DNA of 59,958 nucleotides, from IMG/VR virus record IMGVR_UViG_3300005584_000003, positions 1 to 59,958 of that record; one strand, given 5' to 3'. A program made the translations under genes and the position numbers. Each line of letters begins with the position of its first letter. The stretch's first letter is position 1. This document shows positions 18,121 to 46,295 of the stretch, piece by piece. Source of the stretch: a virus. Lineage: Duplodnaviria; Caudoviricetes. The notes beneath the pieces are model-generated. The model ran no database searches, was not told the DNA's origin, and saw only the letters and a list, made by a program, of their open reading frames with translations.

Positions 18121-19527
18121 ATGGATACTAATCCCGACCAAGACATTGTTGAACAGGAACCTACGGAGCAAAATGCTTCTATTGTTGATGAAGGCAGTCA
18201 GGCATCTCCCGAAGAGCTTGGCGTGGGAAAACGGCAATCCAATGAACCGTTTAGTCCAATTAATTTTGAACAAATCATTGACAAGGCGATGGACGAAAAG
18301 AAAGCGGCTGATGAAAATCCTCCAGAAAAAGCAGTTGATGAAAACAAAGAGCCCTCTGAGAAGAAGGAAGAGATTGCTGACCTTGCTAAAATTGCAAAAG
18401 GTGAATCTTCCGAGGAAACCCCCAAAGAAGAAAAAACAGAAGAGCCCAAGGCCGAAGATAAGAAAGAAGAAATAGTAGAGAAGTCTAAGATCGACGAGAT
18501 TGAGGCTAAATTAGGTCAGAATGCTTCTCCTAAAACTAAAAAACTTTTTAACGAAGTAAAAGAGCAAGTTGCTCGCGAGAAAACCGAACGTGAAAAGGTC
18601 GCCAAGGAATTGGCAGATGTCCGTACTCAATTTGAAGAACTAAAAAAGAATTCTTTACCAAAAGAAGTTTCTGAAGAGATGGCAGAGCTGCGTGATCGCT
18701 TGCGCAAATTTGATGCTAACGCCGATCCAGAGATTATCAATAAGTACGACAAGAAGATGTCGGCTAACAGCGATAATATTATTGAGACGTTAACGAAGAA
18801 TGGTCTGCCCAAAGAACACGCCGATAGGTTAAAAGCCAATGGCGTAACAATGGCAACATTGAAGCCCTATCTTGAGACTTTAGAAACGGGTAAGGGCGCC
18901 GACGGTAATCAATATGATGCCGACCCGGACACGGCTGAATTGGTTCGTGAATCCCTGAGAGAGAATCTTCGTCTTGCTAAAGATAAAGATCGCGAGATAA
19001 CGGATTGGCGGGCTGGTTATGAAACTCGCACAAAGCAAACTGAAGAGAAACAAAAGGCTGATCTTGAACAGGCCTCACAGCGGTTAAGCAAAGAATTTGA
19101 AGGTCATCTTGGTAAATGGGATTTTTTGAAGAAACCAACCGATATTTCGGATAGCGACATTCCTGCCGTGCGTAAACAAAAAGAACAGGCCATCCGGGAA
19201 TACAACGAAAGTGGTCTTAAATTTGCCGATACTATCAAGAAGGAAACGGGATCACCGCTTGATACGCAGATTACTGCCCGGGTAGGCATCCTTTATCGCG
19301 ATCATATTGCGCCAAAGCTTGCTAATCAATTGCAAGCCTCTCAGAAAGAGATTGAAACGCTTCGTTCACAACTTGCTAACATGAGAAAAGCTGGATCCGC
19401 ATCAAAGACTATTGGTACAAGCAATGTTGCTCGCACCAAGGTTTCTGAACCCCAATCGGGTGCAGGATTTGATGATATCCTTGATAGCATGACTGCTGAC
19501 GCAATGGCTTCAAAATCATCTGAATAA
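18121..19527 (+). CDS. putative scaffolding protein
   Basis: acidic disordered N-terminus, long coiled coil, position after portal. Confidence 0.6.
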   Translation: MDTNPDQDIVEQEPTEQNASIVDEGSQASPEELGVGKRQSNEPFSPINFEQIIDKAMDEKKAADENPPEKAVDENKEPSEKKEEIADLAKIAKGESSEETPKEEKTEEPKAEDKKEEIVEKSKIDEIEAKLGQNASPKTKKLFNEVKEQVAREKTEREKVAKELADVRTQFEELKKNSLPKEVSEEMAELRDRLRKFDANADPEIINKYDKKMSANSDNIIETLTKNGLPKEHADRLKANGVTMATLKPYLETLETGKGADGNQYDADPDTAELVRESLRENLRLAKDKDREITDWRAGYETRTKQTEEKQKADLEQASQRLSKEFEGHLGKWDFLKKPTDISDSDIPAVRKQKEQAIREYNESGLKFADTIKKETGSPLDTQITARVGILYRDHIAPKLANQLQASQKEIETLRSQLANMRKAGSASKTIGTSNVARTKVSEPQSGAGFDDILDSMTADAMASKSSE

Positions 19528-20495
19528 TGTCTATTGATATCAAGAAGTTCGTTATCGATTATGTTGCTCGTAACGGTATAGATCATACATCCAAATTAAC
19601 CGGTAAAGGCGTTTCTGCCGTATCGTCTTGGGGAATTACTAAAAATCCCTCGTTAGACGATATTCAGTTAATGCTTAACAAAGATGATGTAAAAGCTGTC
19701 GAAAAGCAGGAGGCTTTAGCACCGGCAATTTCTCCCTATACCTTCCTTGAGGGTAAACGAGTGATGATATTAATGCCATCGGTTAGACCGATTCATATTG
19801 GGGTATTAAAATCATTTGCCGCCCTTTACGAAAAGGACAAGATGCAGTTTTACACCAATCCGCCAGATAACTCTTACGTGCGGGCTAGGAATAATTGTGC
19901 GGCTAAGTTCTTGGAAAGTGGATGTGAATATGCGTTTTGGTTAGACGACGATACCATTGTTCCCCATGGAGATGTTGAATATTTTCGCCGTATATCAAAT
20001 AACCCGCAATTTCCTGTTAATTACATCATGATCAACCCAATAGCTCGTTTAATGCAAACGGGCAAAACATTGATTGGTGGATGTTACTTTGGCCGCAATC
20101 CACGTGGTGTTGCACAGTTCCAAGAGGCTTATCAGTCAGTAAACACTAATTTTACGGCGCATACGGGTCCGCGTGATGTTGTTACGCAGGCTGGATGGAT
20201 TGGATTTGGCTGTACTCTTGTACACCGTAAAGTGTTTGAAGACATTATCAAAACTCAGCCAGAAATTGCCGTAAAGAATGCCGCGTTTGCTAAATCATTT
20301 AATTATAACTGGGGGTTCTTTAATTTTATTGACGAGGAGCATTCTGAAGATGCTTCTTTCTGTCATAGAGCAATGATTGCAGGCCATAGCACGTTTGTTG
20401 ATTTTGCCGTAATGCCAGTACATATGGGCGAAATGGGATATTCGTATCTCAACACCGCCTCAGCCATGAAACCGTTATTTCAACCAAAATATTAA
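19527..20495 (+). CDS. glycosyltransferase (GT-A fold) with an N-terminal HTH-like segment
   Basis: RARN, FWLDDD, GFGCTLVHR.VF, SED..FC, H.G. Confidence 0.85.
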   Translation: MSIDIKKFVIDYVARNGIDHTSKLTGKGVSAVSSWGITKNPSLDDIQLMLNKDDVKAVEKQEALAPAISPYTFLEGKRVMILMPSVRPIHIGVLKSFAALYEKDKMQFYTNPPDNSYVRARNNCAAKFLESGCEYAFWLDDDTIVPHGDVEYFRRISNNPQFPVNYIMINPIARLMQTGKTLIGGCYFGRNPRGVAQFQEAYQSVNTNFTAHTGPRDVVTQAGWIGFGCTLVHRKVFEDIIKTQPEIAVKNAAFAKSFNYNWGFFNFIDEEHSEDASFCHRAMIAGHSTFVDFAVMPVHMGEMGYSYLNTASAMKPLFQPKY

Positions 20496-20496
20496 T

Positions 20497-21909
20497 ATGA
20501 TCCACGGAGAAGAAAGAAAGAAACGTAAATTTCTAGTAGTTTTAAATTACTACGTTAATGACCGAGATATGGCTAAGGCCGTTGCCGAGCTTATTTCCGA
20601 CCTAGAAACAAAGAAGAATGATGACGTTGATTTTCTGTTTTTCCGCCGCTGGGACTCAGAAAAGATGCCGGTTGTTCTAATTAACCGTCTACAAGAAAAG
20701 TTTGATAAGGTCCATGAGCTTAAATGTCGTCGAATGAATGCCGTTGGATACCCATATGGCCCCAACGAGATGTTCTATGATTTGCTGGAGCGTATGAGTA
20801 ATAACGACTGGCGCGGCGATTATTATGCGTTTCTTAACATGGAGGCCGATTGCTGTCCATTAAACCCTGATTGGTTGGAAAAACTCATTGGTGAATATGA
20901 TTCCGCCTACCAAGAAGGGAAAAGCGCCGTTGGGCATATTGTTAACGATCCTCGCTTAACTCATTTAAATGGAGCCGCGATTTATTCTACGGACTTTTGG
21001 TTTAAAGCTGGATCAATGAATATTATCGGTGGACCAGCTAACGTTGCATACGACATACATCATGCGCAACGCGTGGTTCCTATCTCTAAGGATAGCCCAT
21101 ACATGCTATTGGATTTCAATCGCAAAACCATTACGGAAGACGATTTATTTTCTCTTACAAAAGGAAATAACAACGTTCGCTATTTTCACGGCGTGAAAGA
21201 TATGTCGGCAATTTATCACGTGCGTAATCGTTTCATTACCCCAACCAATTTGGTTTCCGGTACTGCGTTAAAGCTTAAAACGATTTGTACGTATCAAGAT
21301 CAAATTGCTGATAGCGGCCAGCGTGAGCAAAACGCCATTCTTGAATTGTGGAAAGAGACGTGGAAACGCTACGGATATAACCCCGTGGTATTTACAGAAT
21401 GGGATGCTAGCAAAAACCCACTATACACGGAGATCAGGAATAAACTAAAAGCGATTAGCGGAGCATCAAATCGCAAGCTTTCCAACGCACTTATTTATCG
21501 GTGGCTTGCGCTTGAGCATGCTGGTGGTGGATTTTTTACTGAGTATGATGTATTCCCGGGCAATAATTTTACAAGTGATAGTCTACCTAGAAATGAAGCC
21601 GTAAACTTACTGAATGGTGGACAATACAACTCAATGATTGCCGACCGCCGTGGACTTAAATTCCTGACAGGTTGGATCAAAGACGCTAAGATGGATAATC
21701 TTAACGAGATTCCAACTGACAAAGAAATTATGAAGGATGCGGAAGAAGAATTCTGGATCCACAAACACGCTGTTACGGCGTCATGGAATACCCCAAAGTG
21801 GCCCGAAGCAAAATTAGTTCACTTCTCGCATGAGGCCTGTCGTACCGTATCCGGTAATCCTAATAAATACGCGATTATCGAACAGTACGTTAAGACGCTT
21901 AATCCTTAA
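20497..21909 (+). CDS. two-domain glycosyltransferase-like protein
   Basis: N-domain MEADC/HLNG.AIY/HGVK; C-domain W...W...G, RWLA..GGG.F.EYDV, LVHF. Confidence 0.65.
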   Translation: MIHGEERKKRKFLVVLNYYVNDRDMAKAVAELISDLETKKNDDVDFLFFRRWDSEKMPVVLINRLQEKFDKVHELKCRRMNAVGYPYGPNEMFYDLLERMSNNDWRGDYYAFLNMEADCCPLNPDWLEKLIGEYDSAYQEGKSAVGHIVNDPRLTHLNGAAIYSTDFWFKAGSMNIIGGPANVAYDIHHAQRVVPISKDSPYMLLDFNRKTITEDDLFSLTKGNNNVRYFHGVKDMSAIYHVRNRFITPTNLVSGTALKLKTICTYQDQIADSGQREQNAILELWKETWKRYGYNPVVFTEWDASKNPLYTEIRNKLKAISGASNRKLSNALIYRWLALEHAGGGFFTEYDVFPGNNFTSDSLPRNEAVNLLNGGQYNSMIADRRGLKFLTGWIKDAKMDNLNEIPTDKEIMKDAEEEFWIHKHAVTASWNTPKWPEAKLVHFSHEACRTVSGNPNKYAIIEQYVKTLNP

Positions 21910-22781
21910 GCGAGCATTTGCTCGATTTGCTGTTTGTATTCCGGGGTTACGCCTTTGCGTGACCAGAAATAGCGAATTGGGCAACATAGCTCATGTTTCT
22001 CTACGGATCCATCGTCCATGTGCCATAACCAATGCCATGGACCTTTTTCAACGGGGACGTAATTGTGATCGCGCTGAAATGGTTTAATGCCATGTTGCCG
22101 CCACTTCTCATCGTTCCAATAGGGCCCCGGAGTGGTAACAGCAGTTATGATGCGATAACGTTCTGGTTCATATTCTAAACAAAACCCACCAAGCGCCGGG
22201 AACTCACAAAAAGACATTGGGAATGATTCTTTTTGCAGGATTACATATTGATGGAATGACATTCTATTCTTTTGTTCCACCTTATCTCTGAACCGACGAT
22301 AAAGATTAAAATGATAAACGTTAGGGTGGCGCACCATTGTTTCCCATTCAGGATTAACACCAATAGCATTAATGACATTTGTCTTCCATGAATAACGCGC
22401 TGGGTAATGTCTAAAATCCTCAAAGTGTTCGCGCACCAATATTGGTTTACCTCCGTGCATAAATGTTTCTGGTGTAAATGATTCGCCAAAAACACAATCA
22501 GCGTCGATGTGAACAATAAGGTCGGTATCTGGTGGGCACCATAAATCGGCTTCACACTTAGCAATCATGTGATGAAGGAATCCTTTGCTGGGATGCACTA
22601 AGTACTTACAAAGCTTCCAACCATATTGATCAGTTAATGGTTTAAACTTTTCGTAATCTTCATATGGCACTAACATTGTCATCCCGGAAAATCCGCTACT
22701 AAAACGTTTAATGGATCGTAACGTGTAAGTACACCATTCATAATCGACGGCATACGTAACCAGAAAAATCTCTGTTTTCAT
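21906..22781 (-). CDS. glycosyltransferase-like protein (DUF6492-like)
   Basis: L.SI..F, K..AD, HIDADCVF (DxD motif), F.EF..LG. Confidence 0.7.
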   Translation of the reverse strand: MKTEIFLVTYAVDYEWCTYTLRSIKRFSSGFSGMTMLVPYEDYEKFKPLTDQYGWKLCKYLVHPSKGFLHHMIAKCEADLWCPPDTDLIVHIDADCVFGESFTPETFMHGGKPILVREHFEDFRHYPARYSWKTNVINAIGVNPEWETMVRHPNVYHFNLYRRFRDKVEQKNRMSFHQYVILQKESFPMSFCEFPALGGFCLEYEPERYRIITAVTTPGPYWNDEKWRQHGIKPFQRDHNYVPVEKGPWHWLWHMDDGSVEKHELCCPIRYFWSRKGVTPEYKQQIEQMLA

Positions 22782-22846: not shown

Positions 22847-23704
22847 ATGGCTGACTCTTGCATCATCCCACCCACAGTTGCGTACCTTTTTAGGGGTGTT
22901 GTCGGACCAACAGGCATTGCTGGTCCAGCGGGCGCCACAGGCCCTGCTGGAGGCCCTAGCGGCCCTTCTGGGCCTTCTGGAGCCACTGGTCCACTCGGAC
23001 CTACCGGTCCCCTTGGTACAACAGGTGCAACAGGGGCCGTTGGTCCCACGGGTCCTTCAGGGGCACAGGGCATTCAAGGACCAAGTGGTAGTATCGGTGC
23101 TTCGGGAGCTACTGGTTCTATTGGGGCGACTGGAGGAGCTGGAGCCAGTGGTTCAGTTGGTCCACAAGGCCCCGCTGGACCTACTGGAGCTACTGGAGTT
23201 GGGTTTACTGGTTCAACGGGACCATCAGGCGGTCCATCCGGTCCTACCGGCCCACTAGGCCCAACAGGTCAAACCGGCCCCGCCCCACTAATGACAGGAG
23301 TAGCAGGACAAATTAACATAACGGCAAGTGGCGCTACTTATACGTTTGGATTCCCGACAAATGTTGGCGTAAGCGGTTCAATTACCTCACAAAGAATGAT
23401 TAGTAGCGTTGTATCAGCTGCTTATGGGCCAACAAGTGTTATTAATTTTGCGGCTGGTGACGCTCAACTATTATCCCTTTCTGGGAATACAATTATCGCC
23501 ACCTCCAACCTTACTCAAGGTCAATGCACGCTTATCAGGATTAATTGCGATGCAACCCCACGTGGACTGACGTTCCCGGCTGGTTGGGTATGGGTTCCAT
23601 CAACGGGTATGCCTACCGGAATTACGGCCAATAGCACTGCAATGCTGGCATTAATGTCATGGACTAACGTTGATTCAGGGGTTGTCGCGTCATGGGCGCA
23701 ATAA
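22847..23704 (+). CDS. collagen-like fibre protein
   Basis: about 40 Gly-X-Y triplets (GPT/GAT/GPS); C-terminal LTFP..W.W beta domain. Confidence 0.9.
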
Positions 23705-24070: not shown

Positions 24071-27000
24071 ATGGCACAAAACACACTAAACTACATCCAG
24101 CAACCGATTACGGCTACTGCTGAAAGCACATTAGGGGCTACCGGTGCAACTGGTCCTATTGGGCAGACGGGTGCGCGTGGACCGGCTGGTGATAGCACGG
24201 CTGGCAGTGGTAATGGTTCGACGGGTGCAACTGGCGTGATGGGTCCTAGTGGCCCTACGGGTCCAAATGGCGCTACTGGTGCTGGTGTAACAGGTGCTAC
24301 GGGCATTATGGGTCCAACGGGCTCAAATGGGGCTACAGGCCCTGCTGGTGCTACTGGTACTCCGGGTCCTGCGGCAACACAGGGTGCCACCGGAGCAACG
24401 GGCATTCAAGGCCCCAGTGGTTCTACGGGAGTAGCGGGTCCATCGGGCCCAACAGGTCCTAGCGGTGCATTAGGTACAACTGGTCCCACTGGTGTTGCTG
24501 GTGCCACTGGTATTGCTGGAGCAACCGGCCCATCCGGTCTTCAGGGACCCACCGGCACACAAGGCCCAACCGGATCCTATGGTAATGCGGGTGTAACAGG
24601 AGCAACCGGTTCATCAGGCGCCACCGGAGCACAGGGTATTCAAGGACTTCAGGGAGGAACTGGATCTACTGGCGTGCAAGGTGTTCAAGGTATAACAGGG
24701 GCAACTGGTGTTCAAGGAGTACAGGGCGTTACCGGTATAACCGGAGCAACAGGCGCTGGTATTACTGGAGTAACAGGTCCGGTTGGTGTAACTGGCGCTA
24801 CCGGTCCACAAGGACCAACAGGTACGGGTTTAGCAGATGTTACAACAATTGATTACCTTCTTTCTGATGGTACAGATAATTACGCCTATACATCAAATCC
24901 TTCTTTATACTCAATTAATTCATACAGGCTTTCAGAAACTCTTTGTGGTGATGCCGCGCAAACCGGATATGGAATTGAAGAGGTATTATTAACAGAAGGT
25001 GGAGACGGATACACTAACAGTGCTCCAGTCGTTTCGTTTACTGGTGGTGGCGGCTCAGGCGCTGTTGCAGTAGCAACCGTTGCCGGTGGTTTTGTAACCG
25101 GAATAGGAATTAGAAACGGTGGCAGCGGTTACGGTTCTGCTCCGGGAGTTGTGTTTACTGGTGGTGGAGGCAGTGGTGCAACAGCAACAGCAACCATTTC
25201 GGGCGGTTCCGTAAACTCAATAACAATCACAAGTGGAGGAAGTGGTTATGATTCATATATCGGTACTTTTATTGGTGGAACCGGAACTGGAGCAAGTTGC
25301 AATATTTCTGTAGCGAATAATAAAGTTGTTTTGGTTCAAGTAACGGCTACCGGTTCAGGTTATCGCCATATTCCGGGACAAATTCAATACACTGGAAGCA
25401 TTTTTATATTAAACGTAGGAGATCGAGGAATAACTGACAATACGGCAATGAACGCATTGCTTCCAAATGGTGTTAACGTATTGGCATTATCATTATTTCC
25501 AGAAGGGACCACTTTAACAGGAAAAACTTGGAATGGCACTAAGTGGGTTCTTACATTTTCACAATCACCTATTGGTGGTGCTACTTATTATGAGTGCGTT
25601 TTTGGTATTCCAACTATTTCCCCAAATAGATCAATGGGAAGCGGTGGAGGGTGGGATTATCGAGTTGTTCAAGGTCCACGAAGAAAATATCGAATCCCAC
25701 CCGGTAATTATAGATTTGAAGCTGGAATCCCATTGCAGGGCATAACAAATGCCGTTTTAGACTGTACGGGAGTTGTTATTTATGCTTACAATAGTACGGC
25801 TAATCCCAGCCCGCCGCCATCTTCATTTGCCGGAAATGGACCTTGGACCGAAATTTCAGACACTAGCACTAAATTTGAATTAATTAATTTAACTTCATCC
25901 GGTAGATCTACATTAGGCACTTTAAATCCATATACAAGGGGAGACAGTATGCCCCTATCAATTAGGGGTTCATATAATATTATACGTGGTTGCACGCTGA
26001 CATCGGGAGGGGATTTCGGGCTACGCGTTGGCGGGAGTTCTATGCGTTCATATGGGTTAAGGGTATACGAATATAATTCAGATTGTTCGTGGGGTGATTT
26101 CTGTCATTTTGGAAACGTAGACGGATGTCTTTTTACTGATTTTAATGGTAATCAAGCGGGCGATGATGGTTTAGCTTTGTACAGTGACGTATATTCTGTT
26201 GTAGCCCAACCAACGCTTATTGGTTTTGTAACTTATGCTAATAGGAATAGTGCTGGCTCTGGATACAATAACGGTACTTTTTTATGTACCGCAGTTTCTG
26301 GTGGAGCACAAGCCAACATAACCGTTTCTGGTGGATCTATCACTAATAGTAATCCTGTCACTAATGGTGGAAGCGGATATACCAGTGGGCCAATGTTCGA
26401 TTTAAGTCCACTTGGTGGCGGGAGCGGCGGAGCAGTTCAGGGTCATTTAACATGGAATGGTATCTCTGGATCATGGGGGGTTCAAAATAGTAATTTGTAT
26501 AAAAAATACGGGTATCAGACCGAAATGAAATTTATTGATGGTTCTACTAGAAAAGAAATTTCTTTTGCTCTTTCAAATACTAATGGTGGCTCTCTTGGGT
26601 CTACAATTATAACGGGTAGTTTTGGGTGGACCGGTCAGCCATCATTAGAATATTCTACTGGCGGAAGAAATTTAGTAATTTCTAACGGAATATTTAAAAA
26701 GTGCGGCTGGCGGGGTATGTTAATTGGCCCATATAATTGGGAAAATATTGCAATTTCTAATGTTTCTTTTGATGGAGTCGGTGGACACGGCATTGCAATA
26801 GGAGACGGTGCCGATTCCGACTTTGGATCTCTGCCAGTTCAAAAAAACATATCAATAACCGGTATTGTTTTTAAAGGAATTGGAGTTCCTCAATACCGGA
26901 GTGATGAAGACAGAAATATTGCTCAAATTTTTAACCTTAATAGCGGTAATTTTGAATTATTTTGCATAAAAAATCCATCGGATTCTAGCACCATAGCGAT

Positions 27001-38300: not shown

Positions 38301-38467
38301 GGATCGCTCCCAATAAACCTAAATCCAATGTTGCAGTTGAGAAATTTTCTGAGCTTACCCAAGCACAACTTGACGAGTACAAAATAAAGCGCATGACGGA
38401 AGAAGAAGCCGCTGCCCTCGACATAGAAATGGCTGCTAAAGAAACGCCCAATAAAAAAAGTAAATGA
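35351..38467 (+). CDS. large putative ejection protein with an embedded KTSC-like domain
   Basis: Gly/Ala membrane-like segments, Pro/Ala linkers, YD......V.F....Y.F.NVP..Y and SAG.YFN.NIRGKF. Confidence 0.6.
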   Translation: MSTTATNTAGAADFDKFYNEAVAKANGGAATLVDKNKKENDFDLEYGQKLNRELQADPDNKEIGDAYEKHMADYYKRNPGALKRFSNEYIPDSLDSAKESLKKTGSVISGMALSASKRIGEASEQVIKNPVDALTGAASGSLAGVASLVPMGLNALGGVKQQIAASRGNYEEAAIVARERAQDEAKYARWINNNIKSLNTGGPDNPMADVAEVIAPMFIPASVAGKATARVLTEEQSTAAAAKALSGRTGLSKVTMSAADLATGGKASRVADLLGDKPSGYAFRSAAEVNREITLRTGEVAEAIQDIKLANSAQDLKALNIANAKYVRAQNALDEATRANLSVEKELAKQTSKLQPTTSGTAIKQGTAGGVLGAGYGGLTGAPGSDKTQPAVAGAAFGTGAALAPRATALAAKTKNYVTEKARGLSDEWRKDWSAGPFNFKARDVVEGVPAEARNVTPLNERDVTPPQPPPPSTPAPEVVVEQPKPAAPAAAAAAAPAAAAKSTEAAPVATEAPAAKPAPVAPVAPVAETPNPAAPPVERPQNYVAGSFKDFVANKVAVMSGDAVGTPRNSANGQFAAYDAKTNVMAVQFQGRTYYFQNVPKDIYEGYINSHKNVAEVDGQALLDQAKSLGIDVDKKSMVSEDILAGDKKAIEKLRGKITSAGTYFNNNIRGKFKSESYSDTLEGVANMPEVEKPSALATMPAPVAAVAKPLAAVETPAAPVVAEKPAIAPVEASAPLTGKALADRAVELGLNIDAGNRYLIEKGNSMVTKIMQDKVAKLEQGLPPKEPPAAAPAVKETPPEPPKAPAAKVAPKVEPKVEEALAPVAEKPVVKSKGKALASLPPVEAQIVKTKAGTTAAPSAELNKKVSSLSTKKQLDAQKDYLIDAVAKLKEQAPEVPDIKDAKLKAEYENHLMDIRVYEGKGGAEGKRKVERAIAGINLILRDSGLPKLTIEVPGDGQFTVNNTKRSLASFEGAIAKKFGKGIAPNKPKSNVAVEKFSELTQAQLDEYKIKRMTEEEAAALDIEMAAKETPNKKSK

Positions 38468-39126
38468 AGATTACCAAGGAAGGAGTAGCCGTCGTCGAAA
38501 GAGATAGTCATCTTGGTAAGTGGGTACAGGAATGGGGCAGGCTCGATTTTGATCAGCACGCACTGAAGACCTACCTCAATTACTTCAAGGATGGCGGCGT
38601 CATGTTAAACGTGGGCGCCAACATTGGTTGTTACGCCAAAGCATTTGTTGATAAGGCAAAGAAGGTCATATGCTTTGAGCCAAACAAGGAGGCCTATGAA
38701 TGCCTCGTCTACAATCTAGGTAAGTACGATAACGTGGACATCCATAATCTCGCGGTGTCCATGTTTCCACATAAGTACAAAGTGAAATGCGATAACGACA
38801 ATATCGGTATGGCTTACATCGAGAAGTCGGACGATGGTGAGTTTGAAACCACGACCATTGATAGCCTGTCACTAACTGAGCTTGATTTCATCCTAATGGA
38901 TTGCGAAGGCTTTGAGCTTGATGTGTTGAAGGGTGGCGAAAAAACCATTAATGCTTTAAGGCCAATAATGGTTATTGAAATCAACACTCATACCCTCAAA
39001 CGAGTTGGCGTGGATAAGTCAGCAATCTTTGACTGGTTAACAAATCACAAATACTCTTACCGGAACATATATATGAACGTCAATATGGACGGGGACCAGT
39101 TTGACATCATTTGCTTAAATGCCTAG
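38464..39126 (+). CDS. FkbM-family methyltransferase
   Basis: VGANIG, FEPN, TIDSL, MDCEGFE..VL.G, P...IE. Confidence 0.9.
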   Translation: MKITKEGVAVVERDSHLGKWVQEWGRLDFDQHALKTYLNYFKDGGVMLNVGANIGCYAKAFVDKAKKVICFEPNKEAYECLVYNLGKYDNVDIHNLAVSMFPHKYKVKCDNDNIGMAYIEKSDDGEFETTTIDSLSLTELDFILMDCEGFELDVLKGGEKTINALRPIMVIEINTHTLKRVGVDKSAIFDWLTNHKYSYRNIYMNVNMDGDQFDIICLNA

Positions 39127-39345: not shown

Positions 39346-39372
39346 GACAACGACTTATACAGCAAGTCATAA

Positions 39373-39915
39373 ATGGAACTCACCGAAAAGTGTAACTATG
39401 AGAAGATCCTTGATGAAGAGACACCACAGGCTGAACGTATTGCTGAATATCTCATGGGGTATGGCGTTACTGACGTCCTCGATGTCGGTTGCGGGCCCGG
39501 GAATTACGTTAAAGAAATGCGTAAGCGTGGAATCAACGCATTTGGCGTGGATATCGATGACCGCGCCATTAATGAAGAGCATTGCATCATTTCCGATATT
39601 ACCAACGAGGATCCACTCCACAAATACGCCGTTGTATTGTCGTTAGAGGTGGGTGAGCATATCCCGGAGGATAAATCATGGGACTATATCCGATATATCG
39701 CTCGATGTGAGCCGACCATGATTATGTTTTCCGCCGCTCTACATGGACAGGGTGGCGACGGGCATATTAACTGCCAGAACAAGTCATATTGGGCTGCTCG
39801 CTTCCGTTGGTATGGCTACAAGTACGATCCAATTGCCACAGAAGATTTCGTCAACTATATGCGCAACGGCTACCACATGGGTTGGCTACTGCAAAATGTA
39901 ATGATATTCAATTAA
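39373..39915 (+). CDS. class I SAM-dependent methyltransferase
   Basis: VLDVGCGPG, SLEV.EHI, FSAA..GQGG.GHIN.Q...YW. Confidence 0.9.
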   Translation: MELTEKCNYEKILDEETPQAERIAEYLMGYGVTDVLDVGCGPGNYVKEMRKRGINAFGVDIDDRAINEEHCIISDITNEDPLHKYAVVLSLEVGEHIPEDKSWDYIRYIARCEPTMIMFSAALHGQGGDGHINCQNKSYWAARFRWYGYKYDPIATEDFVNYMRNGYHMGWLLQNVMIFN

Positions 39916-41090
39916 TGAAGCCCACACTACATATCCTTGTTCCGTTCCACACCATTCCCGATACGGAGCATCATCATTGTGCCTTCACGCAGAAGGCTTT
40001 GCGCATACCTAAGATGATGCAACCGCTTGGGTATGAGTGCTTTGAGTACGCCAATGGCGAATCAGAATCAGACGCTAATAACAAGGTTATGATTCTTTCT
40101 AAGGATGAATTACACTTATTGGCTGGAAAGCGGGAACATGCTGGCTTCCATGGTAATACAGCAGTTGTTGGCTCGCCCCACTGGATAGAATTTGATAAGC
40201 GATTAAAGGTAGAGTTAAACAAAAGGGTTAAAAAGCACGATATCATCTGCCATCCCTTTGGTCGGGCTCACGCAGATCTCGTTAAACTCTACTCGGAGCA
40301 ATATCACGTTGAAACTGGCATTGGATATCCTGACGTAGACTTTGGCGCCTTTCGTATCTTTGAATCATCGGCATGGATGCACTATCACTTGGGTAAGAAG
40401 CTTCATTTTGATGGGTCGGGCAGGATCATCCATAATTCGGACAATTTACCGGTAGTTGGTGAAGGTGGAAAAGACTACATGTGGATAGTACCTAACTACT
40501 TCGACCTTAATGACTGGCCGTTTAATCCCAATAAGGGAGAATACCTCCTCTATTATGGCCGCATATGCCCAGAGAAGGGCCTCGATGTCGTAAAGGCTAT
40601 TGCCGACAACATCAACGAAAAGATCATCCTAGCGGGCCAAGGAGACGCCTCTACGTGGAAGCACAAGAACCTTGAGTACATTGGACCGGTTGTGGGCGCA
40701 GAACGCGGCAAATTGCTTGGAAAGGCCAAAGCACTGCTAATGCCGACCCGTTATATTGAGCCATTTGGTGGAGCAGGCGTTGAGGGTCAATTATGCGGTG
40801 CCGCTCTATTAGCGTCTAGCTTTGGTTGTTTCTCGGAAACCCTTGCACACGGCCTTACTGGTTATAACTGCCATACGTTGGGCGATTGGCTGGATGCCAT
40901 TAATAACGTCAATGCGGGTAAAATCGACCGCCAATATACTTCTGATCGAGCAACGAGACTATATTCTCTGCAAACATGCGCTAAACGATTTGATGCTATT
41001 TTTATGCAAATAAACGATTTATCGTTACCGGCTAATGCTCCTGAAGGCAGTGGTTGGTATCATTTGAATGGCCATATGGTTCACGTATAG
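39915..41090 (+). CDS. glycosyltransferase family 4 (GT-B)
   Basis: GRI.PEKG, AKALL.P....EPFG....E...G. Confidence 0.9.
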   Translation: MKPTLHILVPFHTIPDTEHHHCAFTQKALRIPKMMQPLGYECFEYANGESESDANNKVMILSKDELHLLAGKREHAGFHGNTAVVGSPHWIEFDKRLKVELNKRVKKHDIICHPFGRAHADLVKLYSEQYHVETGIGYPDVDFGAFRIFESSAWMHYHLGKKLHFDGSGRIIHNSDNLPVVGEGGKDYMWIVPNYFDLNDWPFNPNKGEYLLYYGRICPEKGLDVVKAIADNINEKIILAGQGDASTWKHKNLEYIGPVVGAERGKLLGKAKALLMPTRYIEPFGGAGVEGQLCGAALLASSFGCFSETLAHGLTGYNCHTLGDWLDAINNVNAGKIDRQYTSDRATRLYSLQTCAKRFDAIFMQINDLSLPANAPEGSGWYHLNGHMVHV

Positions 41091-41092
41091 GC

Positions 41093-41128
41093 ATAAAAAA
41101 GGGGAGGGACTTTTGATCCCCCCCCTTT
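41093..41128 (-). terminator. terminator between the convergent GT4 and capsid genes
   Basis: GGGGGGGGA/TCCCTCCCC stem + TTTTTTATG on the minus strand. Confidence 0.8.
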
Positions 41129-41145: not shown

Positions 41146-42408
41146 TTAGGCATTAAGGCCAGATACGCCCGAGCAAGAAGCAAGGGTGTCATCAGCCAAG
41201 CAACGCTTGTAGACGATAGGCAGAACGAACCAAGGATAGATCGGGCGGAACGCACGACCAATTTGGAACGCCAGAACTCCGTAGTTACGGAAGAAGTTCT
41301 GCACCATGTCAGGATAGGCACCGAAGATAACTTCGCCACCGAACATCTGTTGAGCCCATTTAACGCGACCTTCGCCAACGTACTTGGCAGGAACCTGACG
41401 CTCGAAAGACTGACGAGCGAACAAGAAGCCAACTTCGTGAGAAGCGACCAGCCAACCGGGATTAACGACTTCAATGGTGCCAGTGGTGCCAGCGACGGAC
41501 GCATAAGGCTCCACAGCAACATAGGTCGAACCATTCCAGTTGTAACGGAGGGGACGTTGATCCTCACCGAAGTCAATACCACGGAACATCGGTTTGAAGA
41601 TGTAACCCGTCATGCCTTTCTTGGCTTCTGAGTCGCCAGAAATTGCATTAACTGCAAGAGGACCAACTGGGTAGGTAACATAAGCACCCGGGCCAGCCGC
41701 CCCACCTAAGTCCTGACGCATTGACTCAAGGATGTCAGCGGAACCGATAAAGCGCACGTGTGCGCCTTCGCCTTCGCCGAACTTCCAAGCAAGAAGATCT
41801 TGCGTGAGAAAACGAGCATAATGATGCAACAGTTCAAACGACAGACGCGTATCCGAATGGGTATTCGGCAGCGCGACATCGATCTGCTGTTGACCACCGG
41901 AGATGGTGGAGTAGAAGTTAACACCGCTCTGCACGATGGCCTTCACACCAGAACGGGTGAAGATTTCAGCGCGCGTATCAGCGTTAATCAGCTCGGTCGA
42001 GTACTGTTGCACCGAATTCAACTGAGTCGTAAGGGACTCCTTGAACGCGTTATAAGCAACATTCAGCGCGATCACATCAGAGAAATCCTGATAGATCTTA
42101 GCAGAATACTGATAGCTTGAGGTGCCTGATTTGCTGTTACCAGCATTAGGCCCAATATTGGTAACGTTACCCATCGTGGTGAACGTTGGGAACGTCATCG
42201 ACGTACCGGGGACCGTGCGGCCCTGAATAGTCGAAACGTGAACTGGGGAAACCTGAGCTTCAAAGGTCTTTTGAGAAAGAACAGAGAGATAAGGTACATT
42301 GGCAGCAAGTGCGGCACCAATCGGCGCAATGATGCGCGAAGGGTCGCTTGCGAAGATCTGAACCGCTGTGGGTAGATCGATGAATGCAGCTGTGGGAGTA
42401 ATAGGCAT
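41146..42408 (-). CDS. putative major capsid protein
   Basis: 420 aa; high-expression codon bias; own promoter and terminator; resembles recalled freshwater phage capsids (LAAN.PY, INAD.RA, RA.RP..P); no other capsid candidate in the window. Confidence 0.7.
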   Translation of the reverse strand: MPITPTAAFIDLPTAVQIFASDPSRIIAPIGAALAANVPYLSVLSQKTFEAQVSPVHVSTIQGRTVPGTSMTFPTFTTMGNVTNIGPNAGNSKSGTSSYQYSAKIYQDFSDVIALNVAYNAFKESLTTQLNSVQQYSTELINADTRAEIFTRSGVKAIVQSGVNFYSTISGGQQQIDVALPNTHSDTRLSFELLHHYARFLTQDLLAWKFGEGEGAHVRFIGSADILESMRQDLGGAAGPGAYVTYPVGPLAVNAISGDSEAKKGMTGYIFKPMFRGIDFGEDQRPLRYNWNGSTYVAVEPYASVAGTTGTIEVVNPGWLVASHEVGFLFARQSFERQVPAKYVGEGRVKWAQQMFGGEVIFGAYPDMVQNFFRNYGVLAFQIGRAFRPIYPWFVLPIVYKRCLADDTLASCSGVSGLNA

Positions 42409-42619: not shown

Positions 42620-42946
42620 ATGAATAATGAGTTTTATACCTCCCCGGAAAGAAAATGTAGATTTTCTATTGATTATGTTACCCCCGGGGCACAAGGGCTG
42701 GCGTGGGCGATCCTATTAAAAGCCGTTGAGGATGGGTGTTCTAAGGAGTGGTTAGTCGCTATTGTTCAATATTATGGAATTGATTTTGATGAAAAATTAT
42801 TTGAACGCCTCCCTATGAATAAAATTAAAATGATGAATAAAAATCACGAAATGATTGGCATTCAATTTTCCGCCCCCAAGGAAAAGGAATGTTTGTTAAG
42901 TATGCACGACGGTCTTCATATCAGAGGCTTACTGGACCTTGCCTGA
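42620..42946 (+). CDS. hypothetical protein
   Basis: 108-aa ORF divergent from the capsid gene. Confidence 0.55.
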
Positions 42947-42974
42947 TGATGGGGCTTTTGTTAATCTAACCAGC
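42939..42974 (+). promoter_or_regulatory. leaderless promoter
   Basis: TTGCCT-N17 (ending TGT)-TAATCT-N7-ATG. Confidence 0.7.
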
Positions 42975-45900
42975 ATGTCTTGTACATCTTGCGCAACTCC
43001 TGTTTGGTGTACCCCGCCTAATTTTGATATTATATTTCCTGATCTGATTGGGCCGACCGGCGCATCTGGTTGTACTGGATCAACTGGGCCTATCGGTCCT
43101 ACAGGTCCACAAGGGACAACTGGTCCCACAGGTATCATGGGGCCTAGTGGTCCGACTGGTACGACAGGTCCAACAGGTCCGCAAGGAACGACAGGTCCTA
43201 CGGGCTTACAGGGCACTACAGGTCCTACCGGAACTACCGGCCCGACTGGAACGACGGGTCCGACCGGACCCATGGGTACAACAGGTCCGACGGGCACCAC
43301 AGGCCCAACCGGGCCACAAGGTACGACGGGTCCAATGGGTACTACCGGTCCTACGGGGCTTATGGGGCCAACAGGACCACAGGGTACTACTGGGCCTACT
43401 GGTTTGATTGGACCGACAGGATTGCAGGGTACAACCGGCCCTACGGGTGGAACAGGTCCAATTGGTTCAACCGGCCCAACAGGTGCTAGCGGTATTCAGG
43501 GCGTACAAGGCACCACTGGACCAACGGGTATTCAAGGTGAGCAAGGTACTACGGGTGCTACTGGTGTACAGGGCACGACGGGACCAACAGGCTTACAAGG
43601 TACGACTGGACCCACCGGCCCGCAGGGTGATCGTTATTCGACCATTAGTACAACCAGTTTAGCCATTCCATCAATTGGTAATACAGTTACATTAACCGTT
43701 GAAGTTGGATTGGCTTATACGGCGGCTCAAGAAGTTGTCGTTCAATATGACGAAACAAATCATTTTAATTTAGACCTAACGAGCTATAATTATGCTACAG
43801 GTGTTATGGTTGGCGTGGTTACGCACACTGCTGGTAGCGGTACGTATGCATCATGGACGGTTAATCTATCTGGTATTGTCGGCGCACCCGGTGCAACCGG
43901 CGTAACAGGTCCAACGGGTATCGCTGGTCCAACAGGACCAGAAGGAAGCACTGGCCCAACTGGATTACAAGGATCTACGGGACCACAGGGTATTACCGGC
44001 CCACAAGGAACTACTGGGGCTACTGGGTCTACTGGTGCTGGTGTGACGGGCGCTACTGGTCCTACAGGTGTTAACGGAGCAGTCGGTGCAACCGGTGTTA
44101 TGGGACCAACTGGCACGCAAGGTGTTACAGGACCTGTTGGTGTTACTGGAGCTACCGGTGTCATTGGTCTTACCGGTGGTACGGGCGCAACCGGCGTACA
44201 GGGCATACAGGGCGCCACGGGCATACAAGGCCCATCAGGTGCTACTGGTGCGACGGGTGTCGTTGGCATTAGCGGTGCTACGGGTATTGCGGGTCCTACT
44301 GGTCCATCGGGGGCTACGGGTGCTGCTGGTCCGGGGACTACCATTACAACCACGGATGATTTGGCCTCAACGGCACTCTATCCGGTGATGGTAACGGCGG
44401 TTGGATCCGCCACCACTCCAAAGACAACGGCTAGCAAATTATCATTTAATGCTAGTACGGGCGCACTCGCAATCACTGGCACCGTCAGCGCGGTCGGCGG
44501 CTTTGGCACGATACAGATGCTAAAGTCCTCTAATTTTGGTTATAGCACCTCTTATGGTGCCGCCGTTATTGGTGCTACTTCGGGTAGCGTGACAGTATGT
44601 TTAGGTGTGGACCCTATCGCAAATGCATCAGGATCATTTAATGGAAATGGCAGCGAGATAATGGTCAGGAATGTTGGATCGTTTATATCACCAACGGCAG
44701 CCAATACCTCTTATTATGGTATTATGTCATGGGGTGCGGGGACTGTTACTTTCCCGAATACGGTAACAGCAAATATCACGGGATCGTCAGGTTCCTGCAC
44801 GGGTAATGCGGCAACGGCTACTCTAGCAGCAAACTCAACGTTGGCCGGTGGATTTACTCCGACAACCGCTGGTACAGCATCAACTATTTGTGTAAGGGAT
44901 GGTGGTAATCACTTAACCATTGGCGGGTATTATTTTGGGCAGTATATCAATACTACGGATAACGTAGAGACAGGGACCATAACTCACATTATGGCTAAGT
45001 TTGGGGATAATTATCATCGTTCTGCAACAGCCGCAAAGGTTGCTACTTTTATAAGTGGGCAAAGCATGAACATCAGCGGAAGCTCAACTTCCTGCTCGGG
45101 TAATGCTGCAACGGCTACCACGGCTACCACCTCATCTGGACTTAACGGGACCGCCACCGCGACTAGGTTCTCATGGACTGCGGCACAAGTATACCAAATA
45201 GACAACTCCGGTGGTGGCCTCGGTGGATTCGAGGTAACCGGTGGGGGTGCGTCGTACCCCGCATTCATTTCGTTCCATCGTCCCGGTGCCTTCGCAGGCT
45301 ACTTCGGATTGGATACCGATAATCAATGGACCTACGGCGGCTGGTCGTGGGGCGCGGCAAAATACAAGTTCCTGACCTCGGCTAACTATACTACATACGC
45401 GCTTCCGTTGAGTGGCGGCACGCTAACTGGTGCATTAACGATCAACGGAACCACGCTTACTGTTGGCAATACTTCGTCCAGCAATATTAACATGGTGGAC
45501 ACGGATGAGGGCACACGAACCATCCACTGTAATTCTAATCGCATTGGTTTTCTGAATCAAGCTGGTGGATGGGGCGCGTACTGCGACGATTCTGGCAACT
45601 GGGCAGCAAACAACTTATCAGGAACGAACACTGGGGATCAGACCAATATTAGCGGCAGTGCGGCTTCGGCTACTTTCTTAAATAGCAGCAATTATATTAA
45701 TCGATGTGGTTCGAGCGGAAACGCAAATACCGATTTCAATAACTCACCAGCAGGGGCAGTTCGTCATAATGGCGACGACGCGAATTTAACAAATAGCCCC
45801 GGTGGCACTTGGTGGTTTTACGACAACTATCGCCACTCTAACAGCAGTAATTATTGGGGAACTCAAGTAGCTTGGGGTTGGGAAGATAATTCTGCCAGAT

Positions 45901-46295
45901 TATGTCAAAGAAATGTTAGTGGAGGAAGCTGGGGCGCATGGGTTGAGTATTTAAACACTGGGGGAAGAACATTTAGCGGAAGCCTTACAATGTCGGCCAA
46001 CATAACCGCTTATTCTGATTTATCATTGAAGGAGAATATAGAGTTAATCCCCAATGCGTTAAACAAATTAAAAACTTTACGCGGCGTTACATTTACGAGG
46101 AACGATCTCGAAGATAAAACCAAACGCCACACTGGTATTATTGCTCAAGAGGTTGAAGCAATTCTGCCCGAAGCAGTGCTCACTGACGAAAAAGGGATCA
46201 AGAGTGTTGCTTATGGCAACATGGTTGGGCTGCTGATCGAAGCCATCAAGGAACTCCACGCAGAAGTTGCCGCGCTAAAGAAGGGCGACTGCTGA
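42975..46295 (+). CDS. long collagen-like tail fibre with a C-terminal intramolecular chaperone (peptidase S74)
   Basis: two GXT collagen tracts, GNAATAT repeats, SD..LKENI...GIIAQEV...LPEAV...[13 protein letters not shown]. Confidence 0.92.

What the first reader, a model, noticed from the sequence alone, without database searches (positions are those of the whole stretch)
19527..46295. Candidate virion glycocalyx system: four Gly-X-Thr collagen fibres, four glycosyltransferases and two methyltransferases
Seen: collagen genes at 22847, 24071, 27153 and 42975 have Thr (or Ser) at the Y position in most triplets (GPT, GAT, GTT). Three GT-A-type genes (19527-22781) abut the first collagen cluster. 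An FkbM MTase, a second SAM MTase and a GT4 (38464-41090) abut the capsid gene. Known: the GXT repeats of Bacillus anthracis BclA carry O-linked, partly methylated glycans, and some mycobacteriophages glycosylate virion proteins with their own GTs. Inference: this phage builds methylated O-glycans on its collagen stalks and/or capsid, which could stabilise hydroxyproline-free triple helices or shield the particle. No nucleotide-sugar synthesis genes are visible, so donors would come from the host.
Basis: partly seen in the sequence, partly recalled or inferred. Interest (0 to 1): 0.8.

Follow-up and report, generated by a model that had tools for sequence, protein, structure and literature searches.

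The report
Two phage sugar-coating gene modules
This uncultured phage carries two separate sets of sugar-adding enzymes, one built into its head-assembly genes and one that travels with threonine-rich collagen-like fibre genes in many unrelated phages, so it probably sugar-coats its own particle, which has so far been shown experimentally only for a few mycobacteriophages.

Summary
The genes are real. All four fibre genes are collagen-like (Pfam), with Thr at Y in 35, 48, 29 and 59% of triplets. GT1 is a GT-A enzyme and GT2 a tandem GT-A enzyme (AF2 plus Foldseek). GT3 is a DUF6492 protein whose fold I did not test. The FkbM and SAM methyltransferases and the GT-B "GT4" are confirmed.

The single "glycocalyx system" splits into two modules.

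A. GT1+GT2 are core head-module genes of a large uncultured clade: 253 relatives, and GT1 lies after portal in 75 of 80 loci. They occur in 5 of 17 complete genomes that have no collagen gene. In relatives the GT1-to-capsid gap holds GDP-mannose dehydratase, epimerases, GTs and MTases (23 of 37 loci). This resembles the Corndog cassette.

B. GT4 sits within 3 kb of a collagen gene in 22 of 25 dereplicated, fully flanked loci, against 25% of control windows. Those collagens have median Y=Thr 0.59, against 0.19 elsewhere. The MT2 methyltransferase is adjacent in 18 of 35 clusters. The cultured cyanophage S-CBWM1 has the same collagen-GT pair.

No chemistry has been done. The scan has noted similar modules on other DNA.

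The parts
15334..17805 (+). probable portal gene; upstream anchor of the head module
   Evidence: Conserved upstream of GT1 in 75 of 80 related loci. No Pfam or PHROG family, so the name rests on size and position.
18103..19527 (+). probable scaffold protein (acidic, coiled-coil-like); its stop overlaps the GT1 start
   Evidence: ORF table and translation. Homologues found in 21 of 80 loci. No family hit.
19527..20495 (+). GT1: single-domain GT-A glycosyltransferase with a DDD metal/donor motif; core head-module gene
   Evidence: AF2 pLDDT 90.6. Foldseek GT-A hits at E 9e-9 to 1e-5. D142 invariant. 253 relatives in viral contigs.
20497..21909 (+). GT2: two GT-A domains in tandem (about residues 7-250 and 260-470); core head-module gene
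   Evidence: AF2 pLDDT 93.7, pTM 0.89. Foldseek hits to COLGALT1, LARGE1 and chondroitin synthases. VIA Z 14-15 for residues 7-250. Present in 72 of 80 loci, often as a single domain.
21906..22781 (-). GT3: DUF6492-family protein with an invariant D93-x-D95 motif; putative GT-A, accessory gene; transcribed divergently from col1
   Evidence: 17 of 26 homologues hit PF20102. 31 of 149 family representatives carry an N-terminal domain homologous to the GT2 N-domain. Fusions to FkbM, Methyltransf_24 or GT2 in 7 of 45 fused forms. Present in 11 of 40 relatives. Fold not predicted.
22847..23704 (+). col1: collagen-like fibre protein (40 GXY triplets, 35% Thr at Y)
   Evidence: Pfam Collagen 4.9e-12; triplet counts.
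24071..27112 (+). col2: collagen-like fibre or spike (73 GXY triplets, 48% Thr at Y) with a large C-terminal part
   Evidence: Pfam Collagen 2.8e-25. Its counterpart in relative G007 has a pectate-lyase-like domain.
27153..27860 (+). col3: short collagen-like fibre protein (17 GXY triplets, 29% Thr at Y)
   Evidence: Pfam Collagen 5.2e-7.
38464..39126 (+). FkbM-family SAM methyltransferase; lineage-specific addition to the GT4 cassette
   Evidence: PF05050 4e-20, TIGR01444 1.6e-23. Found in 2 of 40 relatives, at other places in those genomes. Present in the near-identical contig L098.
39373..39915 (+). MT2: class I SAM methyltransferase, the usual partner of GT4
   Evidence: Methyltransf_23 5.8e-10. 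Adjacent to GT4 in 43 of 80 loci and in 18 of 35 clusters at 90% identity.
39915..41090 (+). GT4: GT-B glycosyltransferase (Glycos_transf_1) with an invariant E282-x7-E290 motif; the enzyme linked to collagen fibres
   Evidence: Pfam 1.9e-9, phrog_3408 1.5e-48. Invariant columns. Collagen gene within 3 kb in 22 of 25 fully flanked clusters.
41102..41125 (-). terminator-like hairpin (8 pairs, 6 GC, followed by a T run) after the probable capsid gene
41146..42408 (-). probable major capsid protein with a short Cys- and Ser/Thr-containing C-terminal tail; candidate target of GT1/GT2
   Evidence: Follows the GTs in 57 of 80 loci. Atlas features include Phage_capsid_3. Tails richer in S/T than the body in 22 of 26. 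No Pfam, PHROG or PDB family.
42939..46295 (+). col4: long collagen-like tail fibre (116 GXY triplets, 59% Thr at Y) with a C-terminal S74 intramolecular chaperone; candidate target of GT4/MT2.
   Evidence: Pfam Collagen 3e-47, Peptidase_S74 4e-15.

Best explanation
The region holds two separable protein-glycosylation modules. Both most likely act on the phage's own particle during late assembly.

Module A. GT1 and GT2 (three GT-A domains in all) are translationally coupled to the scaffold gene. The accessory DUF6492 enzyme GT3 adds to them. Together they build a short glycan on a conserved virion protein. My best guess for the target is the Ser/Thr-containing C-terminal tail of the capsid protein, as in mycobacteriophage Corndog. 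The window encodes no sugar-nucleotide genes, so it would use host sugar nucleotides; relatives encode their own.

Module B. The GT-B enzyme GT4 puts a sugar on threonines of Gly-X-Thr repeats in the collagen-like fibres, col4 first and possibly col1-3. MT2, and in this phage also FkbM, methylate that sugar.

Shown: folds, families, gene order and co-occurrence. Inferred: every acceptor, donor, linkage and methylation site.
For: Module A
- GT-A folds at high confidence.
- The scaffold stop overlaps the GT1 start, and GT2 starts 2 nt after the GT1 stop.
- 253 relatives of GT1 in viral contigs. In the 80 kept loci, portal is found in 75, GT2 in 72, terL in 69 and the probable capsid gene in 57, always in the order portal, GT1, capsid.
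- The GT1-to-capsid interval is 0.6-7.6 kb in 57 loci. I scanned 104 ORFs from 37 non-redundant loci. 23 of 37 loci have a carbohydrate family: GDP-mannose 4,6-dehydratase in 8, any SDR sugar-nucleotide enzyme in 18, plus GT2, GT34, a pyruvyl transferase and GH130. SAM methyltransferases occur in 5.
- The same position holds an O-MTase, two GTs and a GlcNAc-transferase in Corndog, between its portal and protease genes (PMC4351075, passages).
- Capsid tails are richer in S/T than the body in 22 of 26 sequences (median 0.23 against 0.12).
- The GT3 domain is naturally fused to a GT2-N-like domain in 31 of 149 family representatives.

Module B
- 212 GT4 relatives in viral contigs.
- A collagen ORF is present in 69 of 80 kept loci and lies within 3 kb in 63 of 80. 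It is mostly directly upstream on the same strand, with gaps of 20-620 nt.
- After clustering at 90% identity there are 35 clusters. 22 of the 25 with full flanks have a collagen within 3 kb; the other three have one at 5.4-7.3 kb.
- Control: 302 of 1,209 windows (25%) in 62 loci of the collagen-rich GT1 clade.
- GT4-adjacent collagens have median Y=Thr 0.59 (24 clusters). 33 collagen ORFs in GT4-negative loci have median 0.19. Mann-Whitney p = 1e-8, not corrected for relatedness.
- MT2 is adjacent in 18 of 35 clusters.
- In cultured S-CBWM1, gp121 (67 triplets, 29 with Thr) is followed by gp122, which is 43% identical to GT4.
- Precedent: SgtA adds beta-O-GlcNAc to Thr of GPT repeats of BclA3, and its gene lies next to bclA3 (PMC7157674, passages).
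Against: - No glycan has been observed on any of these proteins.
- GT4's nearest solved relatives by sequence are an unnamed glycosyl transferase and cyanobacterial UDP-glucose:tetrahydrobiopterin glucosyltransferases, which are small-molecule enzymes. Only the C-terminal donor half matches (E 2.5e-21 to 1.5e-13).
- In relative G011, GT4 lies beside SNF2 helicase and DNA polymerase genes, far from any collagen.
- Thr-rich collagens exist in near-complete GT4-negative relatives. 6 of 33 collagen ORFs in GT4-negative loci have Y=Thr of 0.42 or more.
- The only cultured-phage hit for GT1 (Pelagibacter phage HTVC027P gp05, 22% identity) lies between primase and helicase genes.
- The capsid gene has no family match.
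- Capsid tail length does not track island size (Spearman 0.31, p = 0.13, n = 25).
- The counts are not corrected for shared ancestry.
- Published readings of GTs inside tail-fibre regions of marine myophages favour host O-chain modification (PMC7029224, passages).
Confidence: 0.5

Rival explanations
1. The enzymes remodel the host cell envelope (LPS O-chain, capsule or S-layer glycan) during infection. This could block superinfection or stop progeny from sticking to debris. They would sit among structural genes only because these are variable regions.
For: - This is the published reading for glycosyltransferases in the tail-fibre hypervariable region of pelagimyophages (PMC7029224, passages) and for cyanophage cell-wall genes (PMC12801897, passages).
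- The sugar genes in relatives (GDP-mannose dehydratase, epimerases, pyruvyl transferase) are typical of O-antigen and capsule loci.
- The col2 counterpart in G007 has a pectate-lyase-like domain, so the host probably has a surface polysaccharide.
Against: - GT1/GT2 are as conserved as portal and capsid, and are translationally coupled to the scaffold gene in a late operon. That is unlike a moron.
- GT4 tracks Thr-rich collagen genes specifically.
- No flippase, polymerase or other membrane-step family turned up among the 76 ORFs of complete relative G007 or the window ORFs scanned.
- The GT4 family was found in only 3 contigs of the bacterial genome collection, two of them about 3 kb long and carrying the same GT4-MT2 pair.
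Confidence: 0.22
2. One or more of the transferases glycosylate phage DNA (hypermodified bases) to escape restriction.
For: - DNA glucosylation is the classical role of phage GTs (passage in PMC12619734).
- The distant GT1 homologue in Pelagibacter phage HTVC027P lies between primase and helicase.
- GT4 in G011 lies beside SNF2 helicase and DNA polymerase A.
Against: - No thymidylate-synthase-like hydroxymethylase or Tet/JBP family was found among the 76 ORFs of complete relative G007 or the window ORFs scanned.
- GT1/GT2 sit in the head module across the whole clade.
- GT4 is linked to collagen genes.
Confidence: 0.06
3. GT4 is a small-molecule glucosyltransferase (for example of a pteridine), and its neighbourhood with fibre genes is a hitch-hiking effect. 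In that case the collagens are stabilised by Thr and Gln hydration alone.
For: - The best solved relatives by sequence include UDP-glucose:tetrahydrobiopterin glucosyltransferases (E 1e-17 to 1.5e-13).
- All cultured-phage homologues are in Synechococcus phages (51 records).
- Recombinant E. coli prophage collagens are stable without Thr glycosylation (PMC3368898, passage).
Against: - Only residues 188-366 (the donor-binding half) match those enzymes.
- Adjacency to collagen genes holds in 22 of 25 clusters, on contigs of 4-205 kb.
- The adjacent collagens are specifically Thr-rich.
Confidence: 0.08

Closest known systems
Mycobacteriophage virion glycosylation cassettes (cluster O Corndog gp35-38; shown for Che8, Corndog and Myrna by Freeman et al. 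2023, which I could not read)
   Same: [quoted passage not shown] The glycans are reported on the C-termini of capsid and tail-tube subunits (secondary citation in PMC12619734).
   Different: The phage clade is different (no cultured relative). The enzymes differ: GT1/GT2 hit no Pfam GT family. There is no recognisable prohead protease. Relatives add GDP-mannose dehydratase and epimerases. Nothing is shown biochemically here.
Clostridioides difficile SgtA with BclA3, and Bacillus BclA (glycosylated Gly-X-Thr exosporium collagens)
   Same: A glycosyltransferase gene lies directly beside a Thr-rich collagen-like gene. SgtA adds O-GlcNAc to Thr of GPT repeats in vitro (PMC7157674, passages). That BclA glycans are partly methylated is recalled knowledge, not from a call.
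   Different: SgtA is a 358-aa GT-A enzyme with four TPR repeats. GT4 is a GT-B (Glycos_transf_1) enzyme without TPR. The partner here is a SAM methyltransferase. The setting is a phage tail fibre, not a spore coat.
Giant-virus capsid and fibril glycosylation (PBCV-1 and Mimivirus; Mimivirus R699 structure)
   Same: Virus-encoded GT-A enzymes, methyltransferases and GDP-sugar enzymes make glycans for the particle. R699 is among the Foldseek hits of both GT1 and GT2. The details of PBCV-1 are recalled knowledge; the review PMC9614988 was seen only in a search listing.
   Different: Those are eukaryotic viruses with different capsid proteins. The similarity is at fold level only, at 10-13% identity.
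Synechococcus phage S-CBWM1 gp121-gp122
   Same: A collagen-like 'tail fiber protein' (67 GXY triplets, 29 with Thr) is followed directly by a GT1-family glycosyltransferase that is 43% identical to GT4.
   Different: It is a 139-kb myovirus. No MT2 homologue was noted beside gp122 in the annotation. No paper found in my searches links the two genes (listing only).

Membership tests
GT-A fold glycosyltransferases (nucleotide-diphospho-sugar transferases) | Rossmann-like alpha/beta/alpha GT-A fold | tested here: met
   GT1: Foldseek gives 145 PDB matches at E<=0.001, led by GT-A enzymes. GT2: two GT-A domains, with Z 14-15 over residues 7-250. GT3: not folded.
GT-A fold glycosyltransferases (nucleotide-diphospho-sugar transferases) | DxD-type acidic motif for metal and donor binding, conserved in the family | tested here: met
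   GT1: D140-D141-D142, with D142 invariant. GT2: N114, E116 and D118 invariant. GT3: D93 and D95 invariant. The assignment of these residues to the active site is inferred from their position, not from a superposition.
Pfam DUF6492 (PF20102), for GT3 | Score over the family's gathering cut-off | tested here: inconclusive
   The window protein scores 19.6 bits against a cut-off of 22.9. 17 of 26 homologues match at E<=0.01. 23 of 30 Atlas hits fall in DUF6492 sets.
GT-B, Pfam Glycos_transf_1 (CAZy GT4-like), for GT4 | Glycos_transf_1 domain over the cut-off, and the E-x7-E motif | tested here: met
   37.7 bits against a cut-off of 26.4. E282 and E290 are invariant in 5 sequences of 43-74% identity. 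That E-x7-E marks retaining GT4 enzymes is recalled knowledge.
SgtA-type collagen O-GlcNAc transferase | GT-A (GT2/WcaA-like) catalytic domain followed by TPR repeats (PMC7157674) | tested here: not met
   No TPR and no Glycos_transf_2 hit in GT1, GT2, GT3 or GT4. GT4 is GT-B.
SgtA-type collagen O-GlcNAc transferase | Gene adjacent to a Gly-X-Thr collagen-like gene | tested here: met
   For the GT4 family, in 22 of 25 fully flanked clusters. In the window GT4 is 1.85 kb from col4, and GT3 is 65 nt from col1.
Mycobacteriophage-type virion glycosylation cassette | [quoted passage not shown] | tested here: met
   In the related loci the order is portal, (scaffold), GT1, GT2, variable sugar genes, capsid. 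In the window the capsid gene has been moved about 19 kb away and inverted.
Mycobacteriophage-type virion glycosylation cassette | Glycan demonstrably attached to capsid or tail subunits | not testable with these tools
   Needs mass spectrometry or glycan staining of virions.
FkbM methyltransferase family | PF05050 / TIGR01444 over the cut-off | tested here: met
   73.1 bits against 22.7, and 83.7 bits against 37.7.
HK97-fold major capsid protein, for 41146-42408(-) | Match to a capsid family or fold | tested here: inconclusive
   No Pfam, PHROG or PDB sequence match, including 26 homologues scanned one by one. The Atlas features lean towards Phage_capsid_3. No structure was predicted.

The most novel reading that the evidence does not exclude
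Thr-rich collagen-like fibres of many environmental phages, including a cultured cyanophage, are O-glycosylated on the Gly-X-Thr threonines by a phage-specific GT-B enzyme, and the sugar is methylated by a partner SAM methyltransferase. The same phage separately glycosylates its capsid with a head-module GT-A set. One particle would then carry two independent, self-encoded glycan coats, and virion glycosylation would be widespread in aquatic phages rather than a peculiarity of mycobacteriophages.
Probability: 0.35. Interest if true: 0.75.

Novelty: new variant of a known kind. Interest (0 to 1): 0.6.

Why it matters
Self-encoded virion glycosylation has been shown only for a few mycobacteriophages and for giant viruses. 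If it is real here, it would do three things.

- It would extend the trait to a large uncultured phage clade (253 related fragments).
- It would name a specific, widespread enzyme pair (212 fragments) for the long-suspected glycosylation of viral collagen-like fibres.
- It would offer a cultured test system, Synechococcus phage S-CBWM1 gp121/gp122.

Glycans on fibres and capsids could affect host recognition, particle stability, stickiness to marine polymers and antibody recognition. They could also explain missing peptides in virion proteomics.

Tried and rejected
- **Sequence-only searches of GT1, GT2 and GT3 against solved structures gave nothing useful.** Single sequences. Profiles; the best was Mnn9 at E 0.35.
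- **Profile-profile comparison of GT3 with GT1 and GT2 was not significant** (probability 0.4% and 1.4%), although both alignments put GT3's HIDADC on the partner's acidic motif.
- **Capsid identity could not be settled** with Pfam, PHROGs or PDB, even with 26 homologues.
- **No cultured relative was found for the capsid gene**. terL matches only a Streptomyces phage terminase at 21% identity.
- **Prolyl-hydroxylase idea dropped.** Three tandem 2OG-Fe(II) oxygenases lie beside the fibre genes in relative G007, but in only 1 of 40 relatives, and none in the window.
- **Capsid tail length against size of the sugar island:** Spearman 0.31, p = 0.13, so not used.
- **Sigma-70 promoter scan:** fewer sites than in shuffles, so uninformative.
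- **My first control for the GT4-collagen link** (windows elsewhere in the same loci) yielded only one usable window. I replaced it with windows in the GT1-clade loci.
- **Bacterial genome scan for GT4:** only 3 loci. The method depends on short patterns, so it may miss distant relatives.
- **Literature.** 'DUF6492' gave 0 papers. Freeman et al. 2023 is not held. Searches for a phage collagen-glycosyltransferase link and for S-CBWM1 found no paper describing it. These searches cover only the held open-access library.
- **Complex prediction was not used.** An enzyme-substrate pair is a poor use of it.


Full report
**What the window is.** The window is a complete IMG/VR record of 59,958 bases (CheckV estimate 57%). 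Its genes run in this order:
- terminase (11273-13309; only a 21% match to a Streptomyces phage terminase) and the probable portal (15334-17805);
- an acidic scaffold-like protein (18103-19527);
- GT1, GT2 and GT3, then three collagen-like genes;
- adaptor, nozzle and internal-protein-like genes;
- FkbM, MT2 and GT4, then an inverted probable capsid gene;
- a fourth, long collagen fibre with an S74 chaperone.

No cultured phage is close.

**Check of the observation.** All four collagen genes pass Pfam's cut-off. Thr occupies Y in 35, 48, 29 and 59% of triplets, and Thr+Ser in 53, 58, 47 and 64%.

This composition is not the default for viral collagens. Ghosh et al. 2012 (Table 4, passage read) give Y=Thr as 8.9% for viruses, 20.2% for E. 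coli prophage collagens and 48.3% for Gram-positive bacteria. A review gives 31.6% for all bacteria (PMC8968730, passage). The window's fibres therefore belong to the Thr-rich, BclA-like class.

The enzymes check out as follows.
- GT1 and GT2 have no Pfam family, but both fold confidently. GT1 has pLDDT 90.6 and is a GT-A fold. GT2 has pLDDT 93.7 and is two GT-A domains in tandem.
- GT3 is a DUF6492 member only by weak score. I could not fold it.
- FkbM, MT2 and GT4 are confirmed.
- GT4 most likely starts at the ATG at 39915, which overlaps the MT2 stop.
- The 'capsid' call rests on position and Atlas features only.

**Module A: a head-module glycosylation core.** A profile of GT1 found 253 relatives in viral contigs, of which 80 loci were kept. 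In those 80 loci, tblastn with the window's proteins found portal in 75, GT2 in 72, terminase in 69 and the probable capsid gene in 57. GT3 was found in only 10, GT4 in 2 and MT2 in 1. The order is always portal, (scaffold), GT1, GT2 or a single-domain version of it, and then the capsid gene.

The GT1-to-capsid gap is 0.6-7.6 kb in the 57 loci that hold both genes. I dropped 11 near-duplicate loci and the GT2 homologues, then scanned the remaining 104 ORFs from 37 loci against Pfam.
- 23 of 37 loci have at least one carbohydrate family.
- GDP-mannose 4,6-dehydratase scores over 400 bits in 8 loci.
- An SDR sugar-nucleotide epimerase or dehydratase occurs in 18 loci in all.
- The other carbohydrate families found are Polysacc_synt_2, GT2, GT34, a polysaccharide pyruvyl transferase and GH130.
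- SAM methyltransferases occur in 5 loci.

So the clade keeps a variable glycan-building island exactly where mycobacteriophage Corndog keeps its O-methyltransferase, two glycosyltransferases and a GlcNAc-transferase, between portal and protease (PMC4351075, passages). I could not read the paper that demonstrated virion glycosylation (Freeman et al. 2023). I know its result only through citing papers.

**Module A is not tied to collagens.** I searched the 40 related records of at least 30 kb, 17 of which are at least 90% complete.
- Collagen repeats were found in 30 of 40 records and in 12 of the 17 complete ones.
- The five complete records without any collagen gene (G023, G029, G030, G032, G034) all have GT1, and three of them also have GT2.
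- GT3 occurs in 11 of 40 records and 3 of 17 complete ones. It lies next to collagen genes only in the window's subclade.
- The GT3 family is large: 1,258 representatives at E<=0.001. In 31 of the best 149, its domain follows an N-terminal domain homologous to the first GT-A domain of GT2.
- 7 of 45 fused forms carry FkbM (3), Methyltransf_24 (2) or GT2-family domains (2).

GT3 therefore looks like a free-standing counterpart of GT2's second domain and a partner of the head-module enzymes, not a collagen-specific enzyme.

As for a possible target, the capsid homologues end in a variable tail of 13-58 residues after an invariant Cys. The tail is richer in Ser/Thr than the body in 22 of 26 sequences (median 0.23 against 0.12). 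This is suggestive only. Tail length does not follow island size (rho 0.31, p = 0.13).

**Module B: a glycosyltransferase-methyltransferase pair linked to collagens.** GT4 is found in 12 of the 40 relatives. These include the two collagen-richest subclades and G026, where it lies 1.8 kb downstream of a collagen gene with Thr at Y in 47 of 56 triplets, far from the head module.

A five-sequence GT4 profile found 212 relatives in viral contigs of 4 to 205 kb. Eighty were kept, and only 8 of them are from the window's subclade.
- A collagen-like ORF (at least 6 GXY) is present in 69 of 80 loci and within 3 kb of GT4 in 63 of 80. It is mostly directly upstream on the same strand, with 50-250 triplets.
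- Of the 11 loci without a collagen ORF, 9 are contigs with less than 3.3 kb upstream of GT4.
- After clustering GT4 at 90% identity there are 35 clusters. 25 of the 35 have a collagen within 3 kb. Among the 25 clusters with full 3-kb flanks, 22 do, and the other three have one at 5.4-7.3 kb.
- As a deliberately hard control I used the collagen-rich GT1 clade: 302 of 1,209 GT4-sized windows (25%) in 62 loci have a collagen within 3 kb.
- The adjacent collagens are Thr-rich, with median Y=Thr 0.59 (range 0.44-0.67, 24 clusters). The 33 collagen ORFs of at least 13 triplets in GT4-negative loci of the GT1 clade have median 0.19 (Mann-Whitney p = 1e-8).
- An MT2 homologue directly follows GT4 in 43 of 80 loci and is adjacent in 18 of 35 clusters.

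None of these tests is corrected for shared ancestry.

FkbM is present beside MT2-GT4 only in the window and a near-identical 10.8-kb contig. It occurs in 2 of 40 relatives, at other places in those genomes. The closest relatives have MT2-GT4 (G006), or GT4 plus a second GT-B enzyme (G007), at the same spot.

Among cultured phages, GT4 homologues occur only in Synechococcus phages (51 records). In S-CBWM1 the annotated 'tail fiber protein' gp121 is a collagen with 67 triplets, 29 of them with Thr at Y. It is followed directly by gp122, which is 43% identical to GT4.

In one genome per bacterial species, only 3 contigs matched. Two are about 3 kb long and carry the same GT4-MT2 pair, one of them with a Thr-rich collagen ORF.

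**Evidence against, and rival readings.**
- GT4's best solved relatives by sequence are an unnamed glycosyl transferase and cyanobacterial tetrahydrobiopterin glucosyltransferases, but only over the donor-binding half.
- In G011, GT4 lies beside helicase and polymerase genes.
- The only cultured-phage hit for GT1 lies between primase and helicase in a pelagiphage.
- Some Thr-rich collagens occur without GT4 (6 of 33).
- Host O-chain modification is the published reading for GTs in the fibre regions of marine myophages (PMC7029224). I rate it the main rival.
- DNA glycosylation is unlikely. No hydroxymethylase-type family appears among the 76 ORFs of complete relative G007 or the window ORFs scanned.

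**Comparison with the known.**
- Module A works like the Corndog-type head-module cassette, but with unrelated GT-A enzymes and, in relatives, its own GDP-sugar genes.
- Module B works like SgtA with BclA3: a gene next to a GPT-collagen gene, with sugar added to Thr (PMC7157674). It fails that family's defining architecture, because it is GT-B without TPR rather than GT-A with TPR.
- My searches of the held literature found no description of a phage collagen-glycosyltransferase module.
- Earlier notes of this scan describe both kinds of module on other DNA. I treated them as leads and tested the co-occurrence myself.

**Verdict.** The collagen link is supported for GT4 and MT2, with FkbM as a private add-on, and not for GT1-GT3, which belong to a clade-wide head-module glycosylation core. 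All acceptors, donors and methylation sites are inferred.

Noticed in passing
window 47812-49395: A flavin-dependent tryptophan halogenase gene (Pfam E 5e-105; phrog_2928) lies just downstream of the fibre and Gly-rich genes. This is an unusual gene for a phage structural region.
   Followed up: no
L085:16134-17886 (record G007, complete relative): Three tandem 2OG-Fe(II) oxygenase genes (two of the prolyl-hydroxylase-like Oxy_3 type) lie next to the col4-like fibre, at the place where the window has the halogenase. They occur in only 1 of 40 relatives and not in the window.
   Followed up: yes
window 6925-8529 (-): A phage-encoded GroEL-type chaperonin (Cpn60_TCP1, E 3e-66).
   Followed up: no
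L013, L020, L044, L054, L064, L073 and others, just upstream of the capsid gene: Endonuclease VII-domain genes sit directly before the capsid gene in 6 of the 37 related loci scanned. They may be homing-type insertions.
   Followed up: no
window 19527-19700 (GT1 residues 1-55): GT1 starts with a small, confidently predicted helical domain that more distant relatives lack (most matches begin near residue 75). Its role is unknown.
   Followed up: no
window 41102-41125 (-): A strong terminator-like hairpin lies in the 55-nt gap between the convergent GT4 and capsid genes.
   Followed up: no
L086:1686-4139 (G007 counterpart of col2): This collagen fibre has a pectate-lyase-like beta-helix (Pect-lyase_RHGA_epim, E 1e-10). 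It is probably a polysaccharide-degrading tail spike, so the host probably has a surface polysaccharide.
   Followed up: no
L072:6895-7872 and L043:10867-11898: In the head-module island, one relative has a formylglycine-generating-enzyme-like gene (FGE-sulfatase, E 2e-26) and another has a GH130 mannoside phosphorylase-like gene.
   Followed up: no
L088 (Pelagibacter phage HTVC027P gp05): The only cultured-phage hit for GT1 (22% identity) is an unannotated gene between the primase and helicase genes.
   Followed up: partly
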